Source of the DNA: Minisyncoccota bacterium
Lineage (GTDB): Bacteria > Patescibacteriota > Minisyncoccia > Phycocordibacterales > Zambryskibacteraceae
Direction: 5' to 3'
DNA length: 21,943 bases
NCBI GenBank assembly: GCA_020059045.1
Contig: JAGVCW010000022.1
Coordinates: 1 to 21,943 of the forward strand
Made by a program: the position numbers and the translations under genes. Under the pieces are notes generated by a model. It saw only the letters and a list, made by a program, of their open reading frames with translations. It was not told the DNA's origin and did not search any database. This document shows positions 1,688 to 16,118 of the stretch, piece after piece; position 1 is the stretch's first letter; every line of letters begins with the position of its first letter.

Positions 1688-3298
1688 ATGTCTGACCGCA
1701 TAAGGAATTGGTTAGTGCGAGTTATCGACCGCTTGGAGAATCACTTGCGAAATCGTCGGATTAGGAACGCGGCACGAGGGCAGCCTACACAGTCGACTTG
1801 GTGGCCAGCAGGGCTAAGGAGAGACCCAGCGACAATAATGACAGCCCTACTTCTGGCAGTAGTTTCGGTAGTTGCAATTTTTCAGCTTAGCAAACTACCA
1901 TCTGTTATCAGTGGAATTTTCAAATCTGGTGAGGATGCCTGCTTGACTGCTGATCTTGCAAGATCTGCTGGAAGGGTGGACGCAATCGCCGAAGCCGCAT
2001 GTGCGGCACACCGCGAGCCGATAGAGTGGGCAGTATTGGGGCTTCGAGCTCTCGTTGTTATTGTAGTAATTATTATCCTCGTATTAGTGTGGAAATTTGT
2101 TCGTAGGCGATGGATGAGACCTACTGCAGCTCCTACTGCTACAGCAGGAGCTGCAGTAGCAACTCCAAGAGGAGCGGGAACATCAGGAATTTCATGGAAG
2201 TATGTTGGTGTACTAGCTCCTATTGCTGTTTTCTTCATCTTCAGTTGGGCACTGTACGCCTTTTGGGCTGAGTTCAGTGGTGAAGCTGGAAGAAGTTATT
2301 TCTGGAACGAATGGTTCTGGAGCACAAACTTCTGGCTACTGCTCATAATTGCACTAGCAGCATGGATCGGAGCGTTCTTCGTCAGCAATAAAGCTTTCAT
2401 TCCTTATGTTGTGGTGATCGTTATTGTAGCCCTAGCTACAACGTACAAAGACATCCGAGAAGGTCTCGCTGGCAAAGTGGTAGCAGGACCACTGCCGGGT
2501 GTAGTCGTCGCATCCGCGGTTGCTACTTTCCCGGAGAACCCGAGTGATAAGTGGAGAACTGCCGATCTTGATTCGGCTCGTACATATCTCGATTTTCCAC
2601 AGGACTCGATGTTTCTCGAGATCTTTGCGTGTGAGTCGAGCGGTATTCACTACACCGATTCTGCACGCACAGAGGTGTTACGAGGGAGGGTTGATAGCTC
2701 CGATGTGGGTATTGCTCAAAACAATGAGCGAATCCATAGAGATCTACTTGATTCCCTTGCAGCAAGTCCGGACTCAGCGGAATATTATGACATATACACC
2801 ATCCGGGGTAATGTCAATTTCGCTAAACACCTGCGATATCGCAAGATCCGCGCAGGAAGAACCGGTCTTCGGATTTACGAAGACTGGAATGCTTCTCGTC
2901 ACTGTTGGGAAAGACATGAGGGTAGCCGGTCGCGTACTGTCGAGCAACAGGTGGTAGAGTCTCCATTTGGCCCACCTCCATCACCGGATCCAATCAGATT
3001 CGTTGATAGGAAGCTTGTAATCCCAGCCGGAGACACAAGCTGGACAAACACGATAACTAGGCCAAGTATGGAGTATGAAGTCTATTGGAATACGGGAGGA
3101 CCATCATATATCGACCTCATTGCTCTCGTAAATGGGCGAGACACAGTAAGTCTGAATGCGAGCGTTGCATACAGGCCGATACGGAACTTCCGTTCGATAT
3201 CGTATAGGACAAGGGTACCTGTAGAGATCCCTGTTGAAATTTATGTCTGTATGCTCAGGCGTAACGAGGCACGGATCCTAGCACAATGTACTGATTAG
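1688..3298 (+). CDS. hypothetical polytopic membrane protein, about 5-6 TM helices, with an Ala/Thr-rich linker and a roughly 270-aa soluble C-terminal domain
   Basis: The ORF is 536 aa with a ribosome-binding site. Hydrophobic segments: TALLLAVVSVVAIF, LVVIVVIIILVLVW, VGVLAPIAVFFIFSWALYAFW, FWLLLIIALAAWIGAFFV and IPYVVVIVIVALATT. No recognisable catalytic motif. GC is elevated relative to most of the window. Confidence 0.6.
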   Translation: MSDRIRNWLVRVIDRLENHLRNRRIRNAARGQPTQSTWWPAGLRRDPATIMTALLLAVVSVVAIFQLSKLPSVISGIFKSGEDACLTADLARSAGRVDAIAEAACAAHREPIEWAVLGLRALVVIVVIIILVLVWKFVRRRWMRPTAAPTATAGAAVATPRGAGTSGISWKYVGVLAPIAVFFIFSWALYAFWAEFSGEAGRSYFWNEWFWSTNFWLLLIIALAAWIGAFFVSNKAFIPYVVVIVIVALATTYKDIREGLAGKVVAGPLPGVVVASAVATFPENPSDKWRTADLDSARTYLDFPQDSMFLEIFACESSGIHYTDSARTEVLRGRVDSSDVGIAQNNERIHRDLLDSLAASPDSAEYYDIYTIRGNVNFAKHLRYRKIRAGRTGLRIYEDWNASRHCWERHEGSRSRTVEQQVVESPFGPPPSPDPIRFVDRKLVIPAGDTSWTNTITRPSMEYEVYWNTGGPSYIDLIALVNGRDTVSLNASVAYRPIRNFRSISYRTRVPVEIPVEIYVCMLRRNEARILAQCTD

Positions 3299-3345: not shown

Positions 3346-3369
3346 CAAAACAAAGGGTCCACTACTCAA

Positions 3370-4338
3370 TTAATATGAAATTTTATTAACCACTCTTCCC
3401 TCTTTATCAAATAAAGTTATTGTTTCTCTTTCGTTTGCCCACATCTCCCATGACTTATTTAGATAAACTCTCCACTCGGGTAGATAGAAATCTTTGTCTT
3501 CCGAGTGTAGAGCTACACAGGACTCATATGAATAGTGACTTGCAATGAAGGCTTTACACTGGCTTGAGAGCCCGCAAACACCGTCGACACATCCCCGCTC
3601 AATATTGTTTCCTATTCGAGTTGAATCCTTTTCCTTGGGCGTGCGACATGTTGCCATAGATCTGACAAACTTATAACAGTCATCATCCAGACTTTCTACT
3701 CCCACTTCGGCGGCCGGATACGGGCAACTAGTATACATGTATGGGTAGAATTCATAAGTGGGAAGATTTTCAAGATACCCACTGCACTTGTTTACTTTAA
3801 AACTTGTTACAACAAATGGATTCTTGTTCTGGACATCACCAGTTATGATGGCTGCTTTCTCCCCTTTACCAAGAATTATAGGGCCAAGAAAATTTGACCC
3901 TTTAGTAATAAACAATTTTGCAGCTTGAGGTATTACTGCAACATCAGATTGAAGTTTCACTTGGTTCCCACCTAGGTTCGTAAACTTATTTCCTTTGCCA
4001 TTTGAAAGAGACCAACCAGTTATATTTACTCCCTCTACTGGCACATCTTGCGCATATAAATATATGTATTCTCTGGAAGGCTGTATTTCATATGTATTGC
4101 CTGATTGTATAGTAACTTTTCCATACCAAGGAGAAGCGTTGCCCTCGGACAATGTTGTGTTCCCAATTTGGCTACTTGATCCACTGGACGAATAAACACT
4201 TGTAGATGTTGTTCCAATGAGAGGACCTCCCATACTTGGGATAAACTTGCCCCGGCCAAGAAGCATAAGAAATATCACTGCCACTATCCCTATGATAAAC
4301 AGTACGTCTTCCCCTTTTGAGTAATTTGCTTTAAACAT
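3370..4338 (-). CDS. hypothetical N-terminally anchored extracellular protein with a Ser-rich linker and a Cys-rich C-terminal domain, positioned directly downstream of the pilin-like array
   Basis: The ORF is 322 aa. N-terminal TM (LFIIGIVAVIFLMLL), then SSSGSSS linker. There are 9 Cys in the last ~130 aa (CSGY, CPYP, DDDCYKF, ATCRTP, GCVDGVCGLSSQCKAF, ESCVALH). A putative own promoter, TTGTAA-17-TATTCT, lies on the minus strand in 4339-4412. Confidence 0.6.
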   Translation of the reverse strand: MFKANYSKGEDVLFIIGIVAVIFLMLLGRGKFIPSMGGPLIGTTSTSVYSSSGSSSQIGNTTLSEGNASPWYGKVTIQSGNTYEIQPSREYIYLYAQDVPVEGVNITGWSLSNGKGNKFTNLGGNQVKLQSDVAVIPQAAKLFITKGSNFLGPIILGKGEKAAIITGDVQNKNPFVVTSFKVNKCSGYLENLPTYEFYPYMYTSCPYPAAEVGVESLDDDCYKFVRSMATCRTPKEKDSTRIGNNIERGCVDGVCGLSSQCKAFIASHYSYESCVALHSEDKDFYLPEWRVYLNKSWEMWANERETITLFDKEGRVVNKISY

Positions 4339-4411
4339 TAAAGTAATTGTAATTTAGAATACTTTAAAATATTGCTTCTTACAATTAGCTTATGACCTTG
4401 CATTTCTTAAC

Positions 4412-4443
4412 AAAAGACCCCGCCTAGGCGGGGTCTTTTGTTA
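4412..4443. terminator. bidirectional Rho-independent terminator
   Basis: AAAA-GACCCCGCC-tag-GGCGGGGTC-TTTTGTT is a 9-bp GC-rich stem flanked by an A-run and a T-run. It ends the minus-strand pilin operon. Confidence 0.8.
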
Positions 4444-4492
4444 ATCATCATTCGTTATTCCTTATTCTCTATTCTTTATATCTTATTCTTCT
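4444..4492 (-). repeat. heptad-periodic purine tract, (NNN)GAAT repeated about 5 times on the minus strand, between the stop codon and the terminator; repeat family copy 1
   Basis: On the plus strand, ATTC occurs at 4450, 4457, 4464 and 4471 with period 7, and again at 4485. The reverse complement, GAAGAATAAGATATAAAGAATAGAGAATAAGGA, matches 14291-14323 at 30 of 33 positions. Confidence 0.6.
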
Positions 4493-4759
4493 TCAAAACG
4501 GAAATCTACCTGAAATATTTACACCGATTGTGTCCATAACAATCCTTATGATTCCGTAGACTCCGAACATTATAAACATTCCAATAACACCCCATAGCAT
4601 GTTTTTCTGACCTTGCTCTCGGTTCTTAGCATCTTCTGTATTAGTAAGGAATTGGAATATCCCCCACAGAAATACTAGGAGTGCTATCGCAAACATAAGG
4701 AGAATGAGTGGGTTTAAGATAAACTGATTTATCTTACCCAAAAACGGAGCAATGGACAT
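4493..4759 (-). CDS. TrbC/VirB2-like pilin-family small membrane protein, paralog 6, lacking the signal peptide and ectodomain
   Basis: Two TM helices separated by a charged loop (FLWGIFQFLTNTEDAKNREQGQKNMLWGVIGMFIMFGVYGII) match the family core of the upstream paralogs. It lies 15 nt after paralog 5. Confidence 0.5.
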   Translation of the reverse strand: MSIAPFLGKINQFILNPLILLMFAIALLVFLWGIFQFLTNTEDAKNREQGQKNMLWGVIGMFIMFGVYGIIRIVMDTIGVNISGRFPF

Positions 4760-4774
4760 GAGAAATGACTACCT

Positions 4775-5122
4775 CTATATTGCTGGGGGCTGGATTATTC
4801 CGCCACCACCCGTACCTGTTTCTGTCTGAAGAAGCTGAACGATCCCCCATACTGAAACCATAATGAATATTGCAACTATTCCCCAAATCATGATTTTCTT
4901 TCCTTCTTCTCTTTTGTCTTCATTTCCTGCGGCAAGAACAAATTTCATTAAACCCCATAGGAAAAACAGGAATGCGAGGCCGATGACGACTGGTGTTGCC
5001 ATATTGATAAGACCCCTGATCTGACTGATAACGCTCTGGGTATAGTTAAAAGTTGGATTCCCTACAGCAAGCACAATTGCTGGAAGTAGGAAACTGGCGC
5101 CAAGAGCAATAAACTTTTTCAT
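4775..5122 (-). CDS. TrbC/VirB2-like pilin-family protein with signal peptide, short ectodomain and TM hairpin; paralog 5
   Basis: Signal peptide MKKFIALGASFLLPAIVLAVG. Core PVVIGLAFLFFLWGLMKFVLAAGNEDKREEGKKIMIWGIVAIFIMVSVWGIV. Gly-rich C-terminal tail. Own minus-strand promoter at 5180-5208. Confidence 0.65.
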   Translation of the reverse strand: MKKFIALGASFLLPAIVLAVGNPTFNYTQSVISQIRGLINMATPVVIGLAFLFFLWGLMKFVLAAGNEDKREEGKKIMIWGIVAIFIMVSVWGIVQLLQTETGTGGGGIIQPPAI

Positions 5123-5179
5123 TGTTTGATAAAATTAAATAATAAAATACGTTTTAGTTATACCTAGTGGTATAGGCTT

Positions 5180-5208
5180 ATAATACAAGGATTTAATGCA
5201 AAATTCAA
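5180..5208 (-). promoter_or_regulatory. internal sigma70-type promoter, TTGAAT-17-TATTAT on the minus strand, inside the pilin array
   Basis: Reverse complement of 5203-5208 is TTGAAT, and of 5180-5185 is TATTAT, with a 17-nt spacer. Located in the 117-nt gap between paralogs 4 and 5. Confidence 0.5.
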
Positions 5209-5239
5209 GGGAAGTGTGGATAAAAAAGTGAAAGACAGA

Positions 5240-5557
5240 TTACGGTCCAATGATATAAGTGCTAAGCCCAAACTCAAATCTAAGTAACCAGACTATCCCC
5301 CAAACAGATACCATTATAAAAAGTGCTATAACACCCCAAGTCATTAACCTCTTTCCTTCTGTTCTTTTCTCTTCGTTACCTGAATTTAAGATAAAGTTTG
5401 CTAGCCCCCATAGGAAAAATAAGAAGGCGAGGCCGATGACGACTGGAAAAGCTAAGTTTAATACATTTCTGAATTCTGTGATTACTCCCTGTATACCTTG
5501 AGCCGCAACAAAAACGGGTAGAAAGGATGTGAGAATTAGAAAAAATCTATAGATCAT
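5240..5557 (-). CDS. TrbC/VirB2-like pilin-family protein, paralog 4
   Basis: Signal peptide MIYRFFLILTSFLPVFVAAQG. Core PVVIGLAFLFFLWGLANFILNSGNEEKRTEGKRLMTWGVIALFIMVSVWGIV is near-identical to paralog 5. A roughly 45-nt stretch (about 5404-5447) is about 85-90% identical to the corresponding stretch of paralog 5 (about 4949-4992). Confidence 0.65.
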   Translation of the reverse strand: MIYRFFLILTSFLPVFVAAQGIQGVITEFRNVLNLAFPVVIGLAFLFFLWGLANFILNSGNEEKRTEGKRLMTWGVIALFIMVSVWGIVWLLRFEFGLSTYIIGP

Positions 5558-5562
5558 TTAAG

Positions 5563-6024
5563 TTATGAAGTTCGAAGAAATGGAAACGCCAAATTACCCC
5601 CAAAAAAATCACTAAAAAGAATACTTACAATTCCCCAAACTGATACCATTACAAAGAGTCCTATCGCCCCCCAGAACATAAGACTCTTGCCCGCACTTAC
5701 TTTCTTCTCATCTCCTGCTGCCAAAACAAATCTCATAAGTCCCCAGAGAAAGACGAAAAACGCTAATCCTATGACAACTGGTATAAGTGAATTAATTAGA
5801 CCCACGAGTAAGCAAACAAATTCTGTGAAGTTACCAGGTTGCGTGCCTGGAGCAGTATTCCCATATGAGGGACACACTGAAGAAGAGGCCGGAGATGGAG
5901 AAGTGTTAACGGGGATAGGAAAACCGGCAAAAGCTTGCACGGGTAGAGATAGAATAATAATTAATATTACAAAGCAAGCTACGTAACTCCTCACCAAATT
6001 TATTTTGAATCTACTCGTATACAT
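5563..6024 (-). CDS. TrbC/VirB2-like pilin-family protein with an extended Pro/Ser-rich ectodomain carrying a Cys pair; paralog 3
   Basis: Signal peptide, then SPSPASSSVCPSYGNTAPGTQPGNFTEFVC with two Cys, then core PVVIGLAFFVFLWGLMRFVLAAGDEKKVSAGKSLMFWGAIGLFVMVSVWGIV. AAGGA ribosome-binding site. Lies 5 nt from paralog 4. Confidence 0.65.
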   Translation of the reverse strand: MYTSRFKINLVRSYVACFVILIIILSLPVQAFAGFPIPVNTSPSPASSSVCPSYGNTAPGTQPGNFTEFVCLLVGLINSLIPVVIGLAFFVFLWGLMRFVLAAGDEKKVSAGKSLMFWGAIGLFVMVSVWGIVSILFSDFFGGNLAFPFLRTS

Positions 6025-11710: not shown

Positions 11711-12352
11711 CTAACTTGCTGCAGATAATACAACAATATCTCCTTCCTTGCCCTCCAAATCCTTCTTTTTCAAAGTAAGCTTGTCTTCTGGCTTAATTCC
11801 TTCCTCTCCACCCTCCTTTAGAAATGATTTAAGTGCGGTCGCTGAAAGCCCGTCCCCGTAATGTGTAGGAATTATTATTTTCGGTTCAAGCTGTACTGCA
11901 ATTTTATTTGCCTCTGCGGGTGTAAGTACCCCATCCCCACCAATTGGTACAAACAATATATCTATATCATCCAGAGCTTCAAGTGCTTGGGAGTCTATCG
12001 AGCTTATAGATGAAAGTGCTCCGAGAAAACAAAGGTTCATTCCTTCAAGATTCAAAAGATAAATTGTATTTATTGAATCCTTCCCATCATATTTTGTATT
12101 TGAGAGAAATCCTCGAATGAATATTCCACCTATTTCATATTCACCAGGACCAGTTATAGCAAAAGGTTCCTTATCTCCACGGGATGCTTGATCTATGCCG
12201 TTGAAATCTGGAAGGTTTGTGCTTATGAGGACGATATCTGCTCCATAACGTGAAGTTCTGAATTTTGAGTCTTTGGAGACAGGATTATAGGCAATAACCG
12301 TGTCGCCAAATTGAATTTTGAGTGACTCGACTCCTTGGTAGGTGATAATCAT
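11711..12352 (-). CDS. MBL-fold metal-dependent hydrolase (UPF0173-like)
   Basis: MIITYQGVESLKIQFGDTVIAYNP..., ...ADIVLISTNLPDF, and ...IIIPTHYGD match the short metallo-beta-lactamase-fold hydrolases. A TATAAT lies 10 nt upstream on the minus strand. Confidence 0.7.
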   Translation of the reverse strand: MIITYQGVESLKIQFGDTVIAYNPVSKDSKFRTSRYGADIVLISTNLPDFNGIDQASRGDKEPFAITGPGEYEIGGIFIRGFLSNTKYDGKDSINTIYLLNLEGMNLCFLGALSSISSIDSQALEALDDIDILFVPIGGDGVLTPAEANKIAVQLEPKIIIPTHYGDGLSATALKSFLKEGGEEGIKPEDKLTLKKKDLEGKEGDIVVLSAAS

Positions 12353-12453
12353 AGTTGCTCTAATTATAGCAGATTTGGTTCTAAAATAAAAGTGGGAAGC
12401 GTCTTGTTTTAGGCCGTATTTTATCGTTTCCTAGAGATATCCACATATTCTGC

Positions 12454-12481
12454 TTGACATATAAAACGGGTATGCTATAAT
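12454..12481 (+). promoter_or_regulatory. consensus sigma70 promoter, TTGACA-16 nt-TATAAT, driving the candidate ncRNA
   Basis: TTGACA at 12454-12459 and TATAAT at 12476-12481. This is the best promoter match in the window. No CDS follows. Confidence 0.6.
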
Positions 12482-12487
12482 CTATAA

Positions 12488-12684
12488 ACGTTATCTTTGA
12501 ATAACTAGCAAGGGGGATCGGCAGATGCCTTACCCGCATATGCCGGCCACAGACAGAGGGCAAAACCTGTCTGTGGCCGCTGACATTTTGAACCACGTGC
12601 AACATATATAGTTCAAACGTTTCCCGCGGGGCCTACAGCTTCGCGTCAAGCCACCAACCATTGTGTCGGTGGCTTTCTCTTTAT
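12488..12684 (+). ncRNA. candidate structured small RNA of unknown family, about 200 nt, with its own promoter and terminator
   Basis: GC-rich island in an AT-rich intergenic region. Perfect 13-bp stem CGGCCACAGACAG/CTGTCTGTGGCCG (12544-12556 / 12567-12579). Additional hairpins: GTTAT/ATAAC, GGCAGATGCC, TGAAC/GTTCA, the CCCGCGGG palindrome. Ends in the terminator AAGCCACC-loop-GGTGGCTT followed by a U-tract. There is no ORF of 60 aa or more on the plus strand. Confidence 0.35.
12648..12684 (+). terminator. terminator hairpin with an interrupted U-tract
   Basis: AAGCCACC (12648-12655), a 12-nt loop, GGTGGCTT (12668-12675), then TCTCTTTAT. Confidence 0.5.
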
Positions 12685-12697
12685 GTATAGTTTTCGT

Positions 12698-12726
12698 TTG
12701 ACTTGAAGCAGAAATAGTAGTATGAT
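12698..12726 (+). promoter_or_regulatory. sigma70-type promoter, TTGACT-17-TATGAT
   Basis: TTGACT at 12698-12703 and TATGAT at 12721-12726. AAGGAG at 12765-12770 lies 7 nt before the GTG at 12778. Confidence 0.5.
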
Positions 12727-12777
12727 CACAGAAGTTCCTAGAGATCTTCCCAATCGCTTTTACCAAGGAGCGTGCCC

Positions 12778-12933
12778 GTGCTTGAAAAAATTGCAATCCT
12801 TCTTGTGTTACTTTGGGTCATCGGAATGATGTTTGAATTCACTGCAGGTGGACTTATACACTTTCTGCTTGTACCTGCAGCAATAATGCTTATAGCTGGT
12901 TTAAGCATTAATCAGAAGAATGAATCTTCTTAG
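12778..12933 (+). CDS. small membrane protein of the lmo0937-like family, 51 aa; absent from the ORF track
   Basis: GTG start with a strong AAGGAG ribosome-binding site. Translation: MLEKIAILLVLLWVIGMMFEFTAGGLIHFLLVPAAIMLIAGLSINQKNESS. The LLWxxG...GGLIHxLLV motif is characteristic of the ~50-aa lmo0937-family proteins. Followed by the terminator at 12941-12966. Confidence 0.5.
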   Translation: MLEKIAILLVLLWVIGMMFEFTAGGLIHFLLVPAAIMLIAGLSINQKNESS

Positions 12934-12940
12934 CATACGT

Positions 12941-12966
12941 AGCTTCACATTTGTGAGGCTTTTTTA
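12941..12966 (+). terminator. Rho-independent terminator
   Basis: AGCTTCAC-attt-GTGAGGCT followed by TTTTTT. Confidence 0.6.
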
Positions 12967-13159
12967 ATATAGAAAATCTGCTTTAGATGTAGATATGGTA
13001 GACAAAAAAGTTTTTTTATATAGAATATCCTTACCCTGTAAGACAGGACTTATCAATTAATAGCGTTTTCATAACCCCTAGCCTGAGAATATCCTGCTTA
13101 GCAAGGCGAGGAAGAAAACAAGGTAGTCGTATAGAAACGTACGACTATCCAAGAAAAAT

Positions 13160-14284
13160 ATGAAAGAGAAAGATACTAAGGAGGAAGTGCAGGACGAAGA
13201 AGGTGTAGAAGCGAAGAAAGATAGTGTGATGACAGCATTCTTGTCTAAGAGTGCGACTCCCCCATCTGTCGATGATCTAGTAGAAGGTGTAGTTATAGGT
13301 ATAGACAAGTCAACAGTTTATATAGATTTACCACCATTTGGCACAGGAATAATCTACGGCCGAGAGTTTTTGAACGCGCGTGACATAATCAAAAAAATAA
13401 ACCTTGGTGACTCTGTGGCAGGTAAAGTAGTTGCTCTTGATAACGCAGAAGGTTATATAGAAATTTCTCTAAAGGAAGCACGCCAAGCACTCATATGGGG
13501 TGAAGCAGAGGACGCGATTAGAGACAAGAAGGTGTTTGAACTTCCTGTCACGGATGCAAACAAAGGTGGGCTCATCATAGTATGGCAAGGTATTCAAGGA
13601 TTTCTCCCAGCTTCACAGCTTAAACCAGAGCATTACCCACGTGTCGGCGACGGAGACAAAGACAAGATTCTCGACGAATTGAGAAAACTCGTAGGACAAA
13701 AAATTTCTGTCTCTATAATCGGAGCAGTTCCAAAGGAAGGAAAGCTTATTTTCTCGGAAAAAGACGGGGAGAGTAAGGATAAGGGTGCAATTATAGACAA
13801 GTACACTCTTGGTGATGAAGTACCTGGTGAAGTAACTGGCATTGTAGACTTCGGAGTGTTTGTAAAGCTTGAGGAAGGGCTTGAGGGTCTTGTGCACATT
13901 TCAGAAATGGATTGGGCACTAGTAGAGAATCCTAGATCAATGTACAAAGTCAGTGACAAAGTTAAAGTAAAAATTATTGAAATTAAGGACGGCAAGGTTT
14001 CCCTATCTATCAAAGCTCTGAAACCAAACCCTTGGGTTGAAGCAGCCAAGAAGTACAAGAAGGACGATGAAGTCAAAGGTGTGATCATTAAATTCAACAA
14101 GCATGGAGCTCTTGCATCAATTGAAGAAGGTGTGGCTGGACTTGTACACATTTCAGAATTCGGAAGCGAAGATAAATTGAGAGAGAAACTTGAACTTGGA
14201 AAAACATATGATTTTAAGATTACCCTCTTTGATCCTAAAGAGCAGAAAATGGCTCTCTCGTTTGTAGAAAAAGGGAAGGAATAG
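13160..14284 (+). CDS. rpsA: 30S ribosomal protein S1, short four-S1-domain form
   Basis: Repeated S1 domains with a GxV and L/I-VHISE signature: GEVTGIVDFGVFVKLEEGLEGLVHISEM and VKGVIIKFNKHGALASIEEGVAGLVHISEF. A 374-aa short form. Confidence 0.85.
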   Translation: MKEKDTKEEVQDEEGVEAKKDSVMTAFLSKSATPPSVDDLVEGVVIGIDKSTVYIDLPPFGTGIIYGREFLNARDIIKKINLGDSVAGKVVALDNAEGYIEISLKEARQALIWGEAEDAIRDKKVFELPVTDANKGGLIIVWQGIQGFLPASQLKPEHYPRVGDGDKDKILDELRKLVGQKISVSIIGAVPKEGKLIFSEKDGESKDKGAIIDKYTLGDEVPGEVTGIVDFGVFVKLEEGLEGLVHISEMDWALVENPRSMYKVSDKVKVKIIEIKDGKVSLSIKALKPNPWVEAAKKYKKDDEVKGVIIKFNKHGALASIEEGVAGLVHISEFGSEDKLREKLELGKTYDFKITLFDPKEQKMALSFVEKGKE

Positions 14285-15530: not shown

Positions 15531-16118
15531 TCAATTAAACCTATTCATCGCAATCTCTCTGCCTTCAAGAAACAAGGTCTCGAGTGCCCCAGTAACTTTC
15601 TTTGAAGTTTTTTTCAGTATTTCGCTTTCAGATAGCCTCCATTTTCCTAAAATGTGTTTGTCTACATCCTTATCACCACTTGGTTTCTTGATCTTGCCTG
15701 AGGGAGTTACGGGACTTATGCCAACACGAATTCTTACAAAACCTTCCGTCTTTAGCGCTTTCACAATAGATAGTACCCCCCTATGCCCACCCGTACCCCT
15801 ATTAAAGGAGATCTTAATTTTGCCTATAGGCATATCTAGATCATCGTGTATCACCACTAAAGTTTCTGCTTTCTTCTTGCTCGTTATTAGGGGCTTGAGA
15901 CTTGAACCAGATTTGTTCATAAATGTTTCTGGGAAAATTACTTGGATCTTTTCCTTCCCAACTTTTCCATCACAAGTCAGTGCTTGAAGCTTCTTATCAA
16001 ACTGAAGTTCCGGAAAGTCAAAAGACTTGAGAAAATTTAGAACCACCACTCGGCCAGCATTGTGGCGTGTATCTCGATATTCTTCACCAGGATTTCCAAG
16101 ACATGTGATTACATACAT
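15531..16118 (-). CDS. pth: peptidyl-tRNA hydrolase
   Basis: N-terminal MYVITCLGNPGEEYRDTRHNAGRVV matches the Pth signature GLGNPGxxYxxTRHNxG. Length 195 aa. Confidence 0.9.
   Translation of the reverse strand: MYVITCLGNPGEEYRDTRHNAGRVVVLNFLKSFDFPELQFDKKLQALTCDGKVGKEKIQVIFPETFMNKSGSSLKPLITSKKKAETLVVIHDDLDMPIGKIKISFNRGTGGHRGVLSIVKALKTEGFVRIRVGISPVTPSGKIKKPSGDKDVDKHILGKWRLSESEILKKTSKKVTGALETLFLEGREIAMNRFN

What the first reader, a model, noticed from the sequence alone, without database searches (positions are those of the whole stretch)
12454..12684. A candidate novel structured sRNA with a perfect TTGACA-16-TATAAT promoter, a 13-bp GC stem and its own terminator
The best promoter match in the window drives a region with no plausible CDS. 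The roughly 200 nt downstream are GC-rich in an AT-rich background and contain several strong hairpins: a perfect 13-bp stem at 12544-12579, GGCAGATGCC, TGAAC/GTTCA, and the palindrome CCCGCGGG. They end in a stem plus U-tract at 12648-12684. I found no diagnostic motifs of SRP RNA, tmRNA, RNase P RNA, or the 6S, TPP or fluoride classes. Its position, divergent from the MBL-hydrolase-gyrA operon and upstream of a tiny membrane protein, suggests either an independent regulatory sRNA or a riboswitch-like leader whose weak terminator gates the downstream lmo0937-like gene.
Basis: seen in the sequence. Interest (0 to 1): 0.65.

Follow-up and report, generated by a model that had tools for sequence, protein, structure and literature searches.

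The report
Orphan small RNA in conserved promoter slot
A perfect, evolutionarily conserved promoter in this ultra-small (CPR) bacterium drives a ~195-base hairpin-rich RNA ending in its own terminator; the RNA has no detectable relative, and related genomes carry quite different, highly folded RNAs or small genes behind the same promoter.

Summary
The window's only 12/12 sigma-70 promoter (12454-12481, TG-extended) precedes about 195 nt that form five or six hairpins, including a perfect 13-bp stem, and end in a hairpin plus an interrupted T-tract (12648-12682). Folding z is -4 to -5.4. There is no Rfam, tRNA or tmRNA match.

The RNA sequence is an orphan. nhmmer, blastn, shuffle-calibrated Smith-Waterman and a covariance model found nothing in 164 syntenic loci from related Zambryskibacteria/Paceibacteria, nor in phage, plasmid or viral collections. 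Covariation therefore cannot be tested.

The promoter, however, is orthologous. TTGACA-N16-tATGcTATAAT sits at the same place, divergent from the MBL-gyrA operon and upstream of rpsA, in essentially all relatives with at least 70% MBL identity. There it drives mutually unalignable, very strongly folded RNAs of 80-860 nt (z mostly -4 to -9) or small protein genes.

The riboswitch reading is not supported. The downstream DUF5670 gene has its own promoter and is absent from this spacer in relatives.

Best reading: an independent promoter-to-terminator small RNA gene occupying a conserved "expression slot". Its function is unknown. Rivals are a 28-codon ORF behind an SD-like motif and the idea that the RNA body is dispensable. 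Interest is moderate.

The parts
12363..12371 (-). TGCTATAAT extended -10 of the divergent MBL-hydrolase/gyrA operon. It ends about 10 nt before the MBL start codon, so the mRNA is near-leaderless. This marks the left neighbour of the unit.
   Evidence: Read from the sequence. The same ...TTATAGCA... lies next to the MBL start in relatives.
12454..12481 (+). Sigma-70 promoter: TTGACA, 16-nt spacer with TG extension, TATAAT.
   Evidence: 12/12 match, unique in the window. Orthologous TTGACA-N16-(t)ATG(c/a)TATAAT is present in 18 related genomes. The window aligns with L001 only across this promoter-proximal stretch.
12488..12684 (+). Predicted transcript of about 195 nt. The start is inferred about 7 nt after the -10; the end is in the T-tract.
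   Evidence: Inferred from the promoter and terminator. Fold z is -4.0 to -5.4. No Rfam match.
12490..12505 (+). 5'-terminal A/U-rich hairpin GUUAU-CUUUGA-AUAAC.
   Evidence: Present in both the MFE and centroid structures. Relatives' RNAs also begin with a 5' hairpin, for example UUCG-capped hairpins in L006 and L084.
12510..12518 (+). SD-like purine tract AAGGGGGAU. Unpaired in the centroid; paired with the 3' CU-rich tail in the MFE.
   Evidence: SD motifs are rare in this genome but enriched in the related cargo RNAs.
12519..12545 (+). Hairpin 1: CGGCA-G-AUGC / loop CUUACCC / GCAU-A-UGCCG. It holds the AUG at 12525 in its stem.
12525..12611 (+). 28-codon ORF MPYPHMPATDRGQNLSVAADILNHVQHI*. 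This is the rival coding reading. Its first four codons resemble the MPFP* mini-ORFs of relatives.
   Evidence: The resemblance is not statistically significant on its own.
12544..12579 (+). Hairpin 2: perfect 13-bp stem with a 10-nt loop AGGGCAAAAC.
12587..12617 (+). Hairpin 3: UUUGAAC / 17-nt loop / GUUCAAA.
12625..12645 (+). Hairpin 4: CGCGGGGC / CUACA / GCUUCGCG (8 bp, two of them G-U).
12648..12682 (+). Terminator: stem AAGCCACC(AAC) / (GUC)GGUGGCUU followed by UUUCUCUUU.
   Evidence: The same C-interrupted T-tail style follows the terminators of the related cargo RNAs. Ordinary terminators in the window have pure T runs.
12698..12726 (+). Separate promoter-like site TTGACT-17-TATGAT for the downstream DUF5670 gene. 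Not part of the RNA.
12778..12933 (+). DUF5670 (lmo0937-like) small membrane protein gene. AAGGAG SD lies 8 nt upstream; its own terminator is at 12941-12960.
12999..13026 (+). Conserved rpsA (S1) promoter TAGACA-16-TAGAAT. This marks the right border of the variable spacer.
   Evidence: The equivalent T(A/G)GAC(A/T)-N16/17-TAGAAT precedes S1 in relatives.

Best explanation
The region is an independent, strongly transcribed small-RNA gene. A conserved TG-extended consensus promoter starts transcription near 12488. The roughly 195-nt product folds co-transcriptionally into a string of hairpins: a 5' protective hairpin, an exposed SD-like tract, then four stems that include a perfect 13-bp stem. 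It ends at its own hairpin plus U-rich tail.

The unit occupies a lineage-conserved 'expression slot' between the MBL-gyrA operon and rpsA. The promoter and the flanks of this slot are inherited. The transcribed body has been exchanged or rebuilt many times, and in this genome it is a short orphan version.

Shown: the promoter, the hairpins, the terminator, promoter orthology, the non-homology of the body, and the absence of any known family.

Inferred: that the RNA accumulates and acts as an RNA. The most likely mode is through its single-stranded SD-like tract and C-rich loops, that is, by engaging 30S subunits or mRNA ribosome-binding sites. It is inferred not to act as a cis leader.
For: **Promoter.**
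- The promoter is a unique 12/12 match with a TG extension.
- TTGACA-N16-(t)ATG(c/a)TATAAT is invariant at the same position in 18 related genomes. Sequences diverge immediately after the -10.
- The window aligns with its closest relative only across this promoter region.

**The same slot in relatives.**
- In relatives the promoter is followed by non-coding bodies of 76-860 nt, each ending in a GC hairpin with a C-interrupted T tail like the window's.
- These bodies fold far better than dinucleotide shuffles. z is -3.5 to -9 in 15 of the 17 related RNAs, and -4.4 for the window.
- Coding cargo and housekeeping controls give z from +1.7 to -3.3.
- One cargo type (L005/L007) keeps perfectly conserved blocks and a long-range helix between genomes with only 68% MBL identity. 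This argues that slot RNAs are under selection.

**The window RNA itself.**
- Fold z is -4.0 to -5.4, third lowest of 161 windows.
- The downstream gene has its own promoter, SD and terminator.

**Shine-Dalgarno content.**
- AGGAGG occurs at 1.69 per kb on the sense strand of slot RNAs, against 0.27 per kb in the background.
- AGGAGGT is seen 9 times against 0.4 expected.
- This is in a genome where about 3 of 22 genes have an SD.
- The window RNA has AAGGGGGAU in the equivalent 5' position.
Against: - There is no homolog of the transcribed sequence, so there is no covariation support for any of its helices.
- There are no expression data.
- The reverse strand folds as well. Perfect palindromes are as compatible with DNA-level features as with RNA.
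- The terminator's T-tract is interrupted.
- Protein-coding cargo in the same slot (L090, L162) shows that the promoter does not require an RNA product.
- No complementary target was found among the 22 local genes.
- The window's RNA is the second shortest of the set and could be a remnant.
Confidence: 0.5

Rival explanations
1. The act of transcription matters and the RNA body does not. The conserved strong promoter lies about 100 bp from the near-leaderless promoter of the MBL-gyrA operon and fires divergently from it. It could serve as a generic expression slot, or as a source of local negative supercoiling or insulation for the gyrase operon. On this reading the window's 195 nt are a dispensable, possibly decaying filler that only has to fold and terminate.
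For: - The promoter is invariant while the body is not homologous between genomes.
- Cargo similarity does not follow the MBL tree. L003 and L005 share 87% MBL identity but have unrelated cargo.
- Cargo can be protein genes or as short as 76 nt (L094, z -1.5).
- The arrangement with the gyrA operon is conserved.
Against: - A filler would drift to the genome's AT-rich, unstructured composition. Instead the bodies have z of -4 to -9, against about 0 for controls.
- The bodies show strand-specific SD enrichment.
- At least one cargo type is conserved in blocks.
- There is no direct evidence for supercoiling coupling.
Confidence: 0.2
2. It is a short mRNA. The SD-like AAGGGGGAU, 6 nt upstream of AUG 12525, directs translation of a 28-residue peptide, or of a very short regulatory leader peptide related to the MPFP* mini-ORFs of relatives. 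The hairpins would be the 3' part of that mRNA.
For: - The SD-like tract and AUG have proper spacing.
- Relatives carry AGGAGGU followed by ATG CCN TTT CCG TAG (MPFP*) in L012 and L081. Variants occur in L084 (VPFQ*) and L083 (MPP*, VTPFT*).
- The window has ATG CCT TAC CCG (MPYP...).
Against: - The AUG is buried in hairpin 1, and a perfect 13-bp GC-rich stem lies inside the ORF.
- The peptide has no homolog-based support.
- The 12-nt resemblance to the MPFP motif is within chance on its own. Similar 1-mismatch matches occur in gyrA genes, and no local similarity exceeds shuffles.
- The stop codon of the mini-ORF is not conserved in the window.
Confidence: 0.15
3. It is a cis-acting leader or attenuator, riboswitch-like, whose terminator gates read-through into the DUF5670 gene (and possibly rpsA).
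For: - It has the same orientation as DUF5670 and lies 94 nt upstream of it.
- The terminator is only moderate, with an interrupted T-tract.
Against: - DUF5670 has its own promoter-like site, SD and terminator.
- tblastn finds no DUF5670 gene in any of the 80 genome loci, while the promoter-RNA-terminator unit persists.
- No Rfam riboswitch was found.
- No conserved aptamer-like sequence or structure was found in 164 loci.
- The extended fold shows no competing antiterminator.
Confidence: 0.07
4. The palindromes are DNA-level elements, such as protein-binding or recombination sites or REP-like hairpins, rather than RNA structure.
For: - The 13-bp repeat is perfect, and both strands fold equally well.
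- The spacer is a hotspot of gene-content change.
Against: - The sequence is not repeated elsewhere in the window or in any locus.
- No recombinase, transposase or RT is nearby.
- The palindromes lie exactly between a consensus promoter and a terminator.
Confidence: 0.05

Closest known systems
Promoter-to-intrinsic-terminator trans-acting sRNAs of Gram-positive bacteria (e.g. RsaE/RoxS-type RNAs with C-rich loops)
   Same: It is a stand-alone unit between protein genes. It has a sigma-70 promoter, several hairpins, C-rich single-stranded loops (CUUACCC, UUUCCC) and a terminal hairpin with a U-rich tail. Its size is about 100-200 nt.
   Different: There is no sequence or structural match to any such family. 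No target complementarity was found locally. No conservation was found, even in genomes with 80% identical flanking proteins.
Fast-evolving protein or ribosome 'sponge' RNAs (CsrB/RsmZ type)
   Same: The related slot RNAs are abundant-looking, variable in length (80-860 nt) and unalignable between genomes. They are nevertheless enriched in one short purine motif, AGGAGG(U).
   Different: The window RNA has a single SD-like tract, not a repeat array. The motif is the SD, not the A(N)GGA of CsrA sites presented in hairpin loops. No CsrA partner was examined.
6S RNA
   Same: Similar size, a strong constitutive-type promoter, and poor sequence conservation between phyla.
   Different: The fold is a string of separate hairpins, not a long rod with a central bubble. 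There is no Rfam 6S hit even at E<=10. Relatives' RNAs reach 860 nt.
Leader-peptide attenuators and dual-function sRNAs (ermCL/tnaC-type leaders; SgrS/SR1-type sRNAs)
   Same: An SD, a short ORF beginning Met-Pro, hairpins and a terminator all lie in one short transcript. Relatives have MPFP*/MPP* mini-ORFs ending Pro-stop.
   Different: No regulated downstream gene shares the transcript by necessity. No alternative terminator/antiterminator pairing is evident. The ORF is not conserved.
Variable cargo at conserved genomic hotspots (integron-like or island-like slots)
   Same: Conserved flanks, here the promoter on the left and the T-tail plus rpsA promoter on the right. Non-homologous cargo whose similarity does not follow the host-gene tree. 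Tandem accumulation of units, seen in the window and in L084.
   Different: No integrase or attC-like sites. The cargo is mostly non-coding RNA rather than ORF cassettes. Near-identical strains carry identical cargo.

Membership tests
Any Rfam 15 family (including SRP, tmRNA, RNase P, 6S, riboswitches, ROOL/GOLLD/OLE/HEARO/raiA) | Covariance-model score at or above the family's gathering threshold | tested here: not met
   There were 0 hits in the window at gathering. With E<=10 on 12350-12800 there were only two reverse-strand hits of 13-15 bits against cut-offs of 60-153. There were 0 hits at gathering in 17 related loci and no hit inside the related RNAs at E<=1.
tRNA / tmRNA | tRNA-like domain detected by ARAGORN | tested here: not met
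   No gene was found in the window or in 23 related loci.
6S RNA | Extended rod formed by 5' and 3' halves with a large central bubble | tested here: not met
   The MFE and centroid structures are five or six independent hairpins.
Riboswitch / cis leader of the DUF5670 gene | Conserved aptamer found upstream of the same gene family in other genomes | tested here: not met
   No homolog of the RNA was found in 164 loci. tblastn finds no DUF5670 gene in the 80 genome loci. The DUF5670 homolog search returned only the protein itself, so other contexts could not be examined.
Riboswitch / cis leader of the DUF5670 gene | The regulated gene depends on the leader's promoter, and there is a mutually exclusive terminator/antiterminator | tested here: not met
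   A separate promoter-like site lies at 12698-12726. No competing structure appears in the extended fold.
Independent bacterial sRNA gene | Own promoter | tested here: met
   A 12/12 TG-extended promoter that is unique in the window and orthologous in 18 genomes.
Independent bacterial sRNA gene | Own intrinsic terminator | tested here: met
   A hairpin at 12648-12675 followed by TTTCTCTTT. It is moderate in strength because the T-tract is interrupted.
Independent bacterial sRNA gene | Discrete stable transcript | not testable with these tools
   No expression data are available.
Independent bacterial sRNA gene | Structure supported by covariation in homologs | tested here: inconclusive
   No homolog exists in the data searched, so there is nothing to count.
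Retron ncRNA / other RT- or nuclease-associated guide RNAs | Adjacent reverse transcriptase, Cas/TnpB/IS110-type protein or repeat array | tested here: not met
   Neighbours are an MBL hydrolase, gyrA, a methyltransferase, DUF5670, S1, Pth, signal peptidase and T4SS-pilin-like proteins. There is no repeat array.
Type I toxin-antitoxin (sRNA antitoxin for the small membrane protein) | Extended complementarity between the sRNA and the toxin mRNA | tested here: not met
   The duplex energy with the DUF5670 initiation region is no better than for shuffled sRNA (p about 0.6).
Small protein gene | ORF conserved in relatives | tested here: not met
   The 28-codon ORF has no counterpart. Relatives have only 2-22-codon ORFs of different sequence.

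The most novel reading that the evidence does not exclude
Zambryskibacteria keep a fixed, very strong promoter next to the gyrase operon as a slot. Unrelated, highly folded RNAs bearing Shine-Dalgarno sequences and mini-ORFs are swapped into this slot. In a lineage whose own genes largely lack SD sequences, these RNAs would act as abundant 30S/anti-SD (or mini-ORF) decoys or sensors of translational capacity. The window's 195-nt RNA would be the minimal version.
Probability: 0.12. Interest if true: 0.8.

Novelty: new member of a known kind. Interest (0 to 1): 0.45.

Why it matters
Regulatory RNAs of CPR/Patescibacteria are almost unexplored, because these organisms are uncultured and standard RNA families explain very little of their non-coding DNA.

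This locus gives a concrete and easily testable candidate. It has a consensus promoter, a defined 5' end and a defined terminator.

It also exposes an unusual pattern: one conserved promoter with many non-homologous, strongly structured transcripts. If that pattern is real at the RNA level, it would be a new way for minimal genomes to diversify non-coding functions.

If instead the RNA body proves dispensable, the locus becomes a clean example of a conserved divergent promoter acting on a gyrase operon.

Tried and rejected
1. **Known RNA families.** Rfam at the gathering threshold and at E<=10, plus ARAGORN, gave nothing.
2. **Sequence homologs next to the MBL gene.** nhmmer and blastn against 164 loci gave none.
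3. **Motifs that looked shared by eye.** These were CCACAGAC...GTCTGTGG with L086, CACCAACCAT with L081, CCTTACCC with the S1 leader, and the ATG-CCN-TWY-CCG motif. Shuffle-calibrated blastn and Smith-Waterman show none exceeds chance. The observed top score was 19.0 bits against a null median of 20.6, and the best of 17 p-values was 0.025. I therefore do not claim homology to the other slot RNAs.
4. **Structural homologs.** A single-sequence covariance model found only itself.
5. **Mobile-element or phage origin.** There were no blastn hits in the phage or plasmid collections and no exact-pattern hits in viral contigs. The one hit to a relative's motif (L165) is a chance match in a GC-rich coding region.
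6. **Fast vertical divergence of one ancestral RNA.** Rejected as the sole explanation, because cargo similarity does not track MBL identity. Strain-level hypervariability is rejected because near-identical strains have identical spacers.
7. **Strand assignment from folding or G-U content.** Uninformative.
8. **Base-pairing targets among the 22 genes of the window.** None was better than for shuffles.
9. **Other contexts of DUF5670 homologs.** The search returned only the query itself.
10. **Literature.** Two full-text searches found no description of such RNAs in Parcubacteria/Patescibacteria.

Full report
**Setting**

The window comes from a CPR bacterium. The MBL-fold hydrolase at 11711-12352 (minus strand) has its best matches in Candidatus Zambryskibacteria and Paceibacteria MAGs. 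Nothing is closer than 80% identity among 5.8 billion proteins.

The finding lies in the 807-bp spacer between two units.
- On the minus strand: MBL hydrolase, a 113-aa protein, gyrA and a methyltransferase.
- On the plus strand: rpsA (S1, 13160-14284).

The spacer also holds a 51-53-aa DUF5670 membrane protein gene.

Yes.
- The promoter TTGACA-16-TATAAT with a TG extension (12454-12481) is a 12/12 match. It is the only one in 21.9 kb; the others score 11/12 or less.
- The 13-bp perfect inverted repeat is at 12544-12556 / 12567-12579.
- The predicted RNA forms a 5' A/U hairpin, a 9-bp hairpin that contains an AUG, the 13-bp hairpin, a 7-bp UUUGAAC/GUUCAAA hairpin, an 8-bp hairpin built from the CCCGCGGG region, and a terminal hairpin followed by UUUCUCUUU.
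- The fold is significantly better than dinucleotide shuffles. z is -4.0 and -4.4.
- In a 200-nt sliding scan of the first 16 kb, the 12501-12700 window has z -5.4. That is third lowest of 161 windows, whose mean is -0.57.

Three qualifications apply.
1. The GC excess is modest (51-55% against 41%) and is matched by some coding stretches.
2. There is a 28-codon ORF behind an SD-like tract.
3. The reverse strand folds just as well (z -4.9). Orientation therefore rests on the promoter and the T-tract.

**Known families**

- Rfam 15 gives no hit at the gathering threshold. At E<=10 it gives only two chance-level reverse-strand hits.
- ARAGORN finds no tRNA or tmRNA.
- No reverse transcriptase, recombinase, Cas-like gene or repeat array is nearby.

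**Relatives**

I collected 164 loci around MBL homologs: 80 from GTDB species genomes, 80 from metagenomes, and four by exact protein look-up. The divergent MBL/S1 arrangement is nearly universal, but the spacer ranges from about 150 to 3200 bp.

The window's transcribed sequence has no match in any of them.
- nhmmer and blastn find nothing.
- Shuffle-calibrated local alignment finds nothing.
- A covariance model built from the sequence plus its centroid structure finds nothing.
- Phage and plasmid collections and viral contigs give nothing.

More exactly, it cannot be tested.

**The conserved promoter**

The promoter itself is clearly orthologous. In essentially every locus with at least 70% MBL identity, and in a few beyond that, the same TTGACA-N16-(t)ATG(c/a)TATAAT sits 70-150 bp from the MBL start (further in L003 and L094) and points away from it. 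Sequence similarity stops right after the -10. The window aligns with its nearest relative, L001, only over this promoter-proximal stretch.

What follows the promoter differs from genome to genome.
- Most carry non-coding bodies of 270-860 nt.
- L094 carries one of 76 nt.
- The window carries about 195 nt.
- L090 and L162 carry protein genes.

Each non-coding body ends in a GC-rich hairpin with a C-interrupted T tail of the same style as the window's. The conserved rpsA promoter follows.

These bodies are almost all mutually unalignable. Only L005 with L007, and L002 with L003, align. Cargo similarity does not follow the MBL tree. L003 and L005 share 87% MBL identity but have unrelated cargo. 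L005 and L007 share 68% MBL identity and 86% S1 identity, and their cargo is 66% identical. Near-identical strains have identical spacers. The picture is therefore replacement or recombination at a hotspot, not hypermutation.

**Are the slot RNAs real structured RNAs?**

- Their folding z-scores are -3.5 to -9 in 15 of the 17 related RNAs.
- Protein-coding cargo in the same slot gives -0.2 to -3.3. Window housekeeping genes give about 0 to +1.7.
- The L005/L007 pair keeps long, perfectly conserved blocks and a long-range GUGCCC/GGGCAC helix.
- The most over-represented word on their sense strand is the Shine-Dalgarno AGGAGGU: 9 observed against 0.4 expected. AGGAGG occurs at 1.69 per kb against 0.27 per kb in the flanking DNA.
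- This enrichment occurs in a genome where only about 3 of 22 genes have an SD, and several look leaderless.
- Several slot RNAs have a tiny ORF after the first SD. L012 and L081 have MPFP*. L084 has VPFQ*. L083 has MPP* and VTPFT*.
- The window has AAGGGGGAU followed by ATG CCT TAC CCG, but the ORF runs on for 28 codons through the 13-bp stem.

I regard this last resemblance as a lead, not a demonstrated homology. It does not exceed chance in the shuffle tests.

**Interpretation**

The best-supported reading is an independent promoter-to-terminator small RNA gene sitting in a conserved expression slot.

The riboswitch or leader reading is weak, for three reasons.
- DUF5670 has its own promoter-like site (12698-12726), SD and terminator.
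- tblastn finds no DUF5670 gene in the 80 genome loci.
- The extended fold offers no antiterminator.

There are three serious rivals.
1. The RNA body may be dispensable, and the conserved divergent promoter itself may be the functional element. It could be a generic expression slot or a source of supercoiling coupling to the gyrA operon.
2. The transcript may be a short mRNA or leader-peptide unit.
3. The palindromes may act at the DNA level.

No base-pairing target stood out among the local genes.

**Novelty and score**

The RNA belongs to no described family, so it is a new candidate of a known kind, a stand-alone bacterial sRNA. Evidence for it is thermodynamic plus a strong synteny and promoter argument, with no covariation and no expression data.

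The wider pattern is the more interesting result and deserves follow-up: one invariant promoter with many unrelated, strongly folded, SD-bearing RNAs. Two literature searches found no prior description.

Overall interest is 0.45.

Noticed in passing
L001, L002, L003, L004, L005, L006, L007, L009, L012, L032, L061, L081, L083, L084, L086, L091, L094: minus strand, upstream of the MBL match: The same consensus promoter drives 76-860-nt non-coding, terminator-ended bodies. They are mutually unalignable but fold with z mostly -4 to -9. None matches Rfam.
   Followed up: partly
Slot RNAs of L012 (locus 3367-3391, minus), L081 (2676-2701, minus), L084, L083, L006: A strong SD, AGGAGGU, is followed by a tiny ORF: ATG CCN TTT CCG TAG (MPFP*), or variants VPFQ*, MPP* and VTPFT*. 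L006 keeps the sequence without a start codon. AGGAGG is 6-fold enriched on the sense strand of slot RNAs although the genome is SD-poor.
   Followed up: partly
window 12363-12371 (minus strand) and the upstream regions of the other genes in the window: MBL hydrolase has TGCTATAAT ending about 10 nt before its ATG, so the mRNA is near-leaderless. The same arrangement is seen at 15531-16118. Only about 3 of 22 genes in the window have a recognisable SD.
   Followed up: partly
L005 and L007 slot RNAs (alignment A3): This cargo type is shared by genomes with 68% MBL but 86% S1 identity. It has perfectly conserved blocks (UUCGGCGCUUAGGGGUGCCC, GGAUAGAUNUGCGCACAUCUCCUGAUUC, GCCACGGGCACGGCCUC) and a long-range helix. 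It looks like a genuine new structured RNA family.
   Followed up: partly
L001 spacer positions about 658-745 and 783-870 (window orientation); L002 and L003 slot RNAs: There are internal direct repeats of RNA modules. L001 has two ~85-nt copies. L002 and L003 together have three copies of a hairpin GGGUUCCGG-AAAU-CCGGACCC followed by UGACAGGACAGCA.
   Followed up: no
L084 spacer positions about 95-215 and 870-990 (window orientation): The promoter and the first ~80 nt of the slot RNA are duplicated in tandem. The second copy serves as promoter and 5' leader of a 159-aa lipoprotein-like gene.
   Followed up: no
L086 and L091 slot RNAs: They share a hairpin with an identical 11-nt loop and a covarying stem: CUGAG-CGCCUCAUAAG-CUCAG against CCGAG-CGCCUCAUAAG-CUCGG. 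The one viral-contig hit to this motif (L165) is a chance match in a coding region.
   Followed up: partly
window 12999-13160 and the equivalent regions of relatives: rpsA has a conserved promoter T(A/G)GAC(A/T)-N16/17-TAGAAT. It is followed by a leader that starts with a hairpin of variable, apparently covarying sequence and then a conserved AUUAAUAGC-like tract. There is no SD before the S1 start.
   Followed up: no
window 4413-4441 and about 4500-4760 (minus strand): A GC hairpin flanked by A and T runs (AAAAGACCCCGCCTAGGCGGGGTCTTTTG) looks like a bidirectional terminator. Next to it is an unlisted ~85-codon hydrophobic ORF, adjacent to three T4SS-pilin-like genes (4775-6024). The 4301-4600 windows have fold z of about -5.
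   Followed up: no
window 2701-2900 (inside ORF 1688-3298): This has the lowest folding z-score of the sliding scan (-5.9), inside a 536-aa ORF with no Pfam match.
   Followed up: no
L090, L162, L011 and L084 spacers: Protein-coding cargo in the same slot is also GC-rich (52-65% against about 40% for the genomes). GC-richness is therefore a property of slot cargo in general (foreign origin or biased conversion) and is not by itself evidence of RNA structure.
   Followed up: partly
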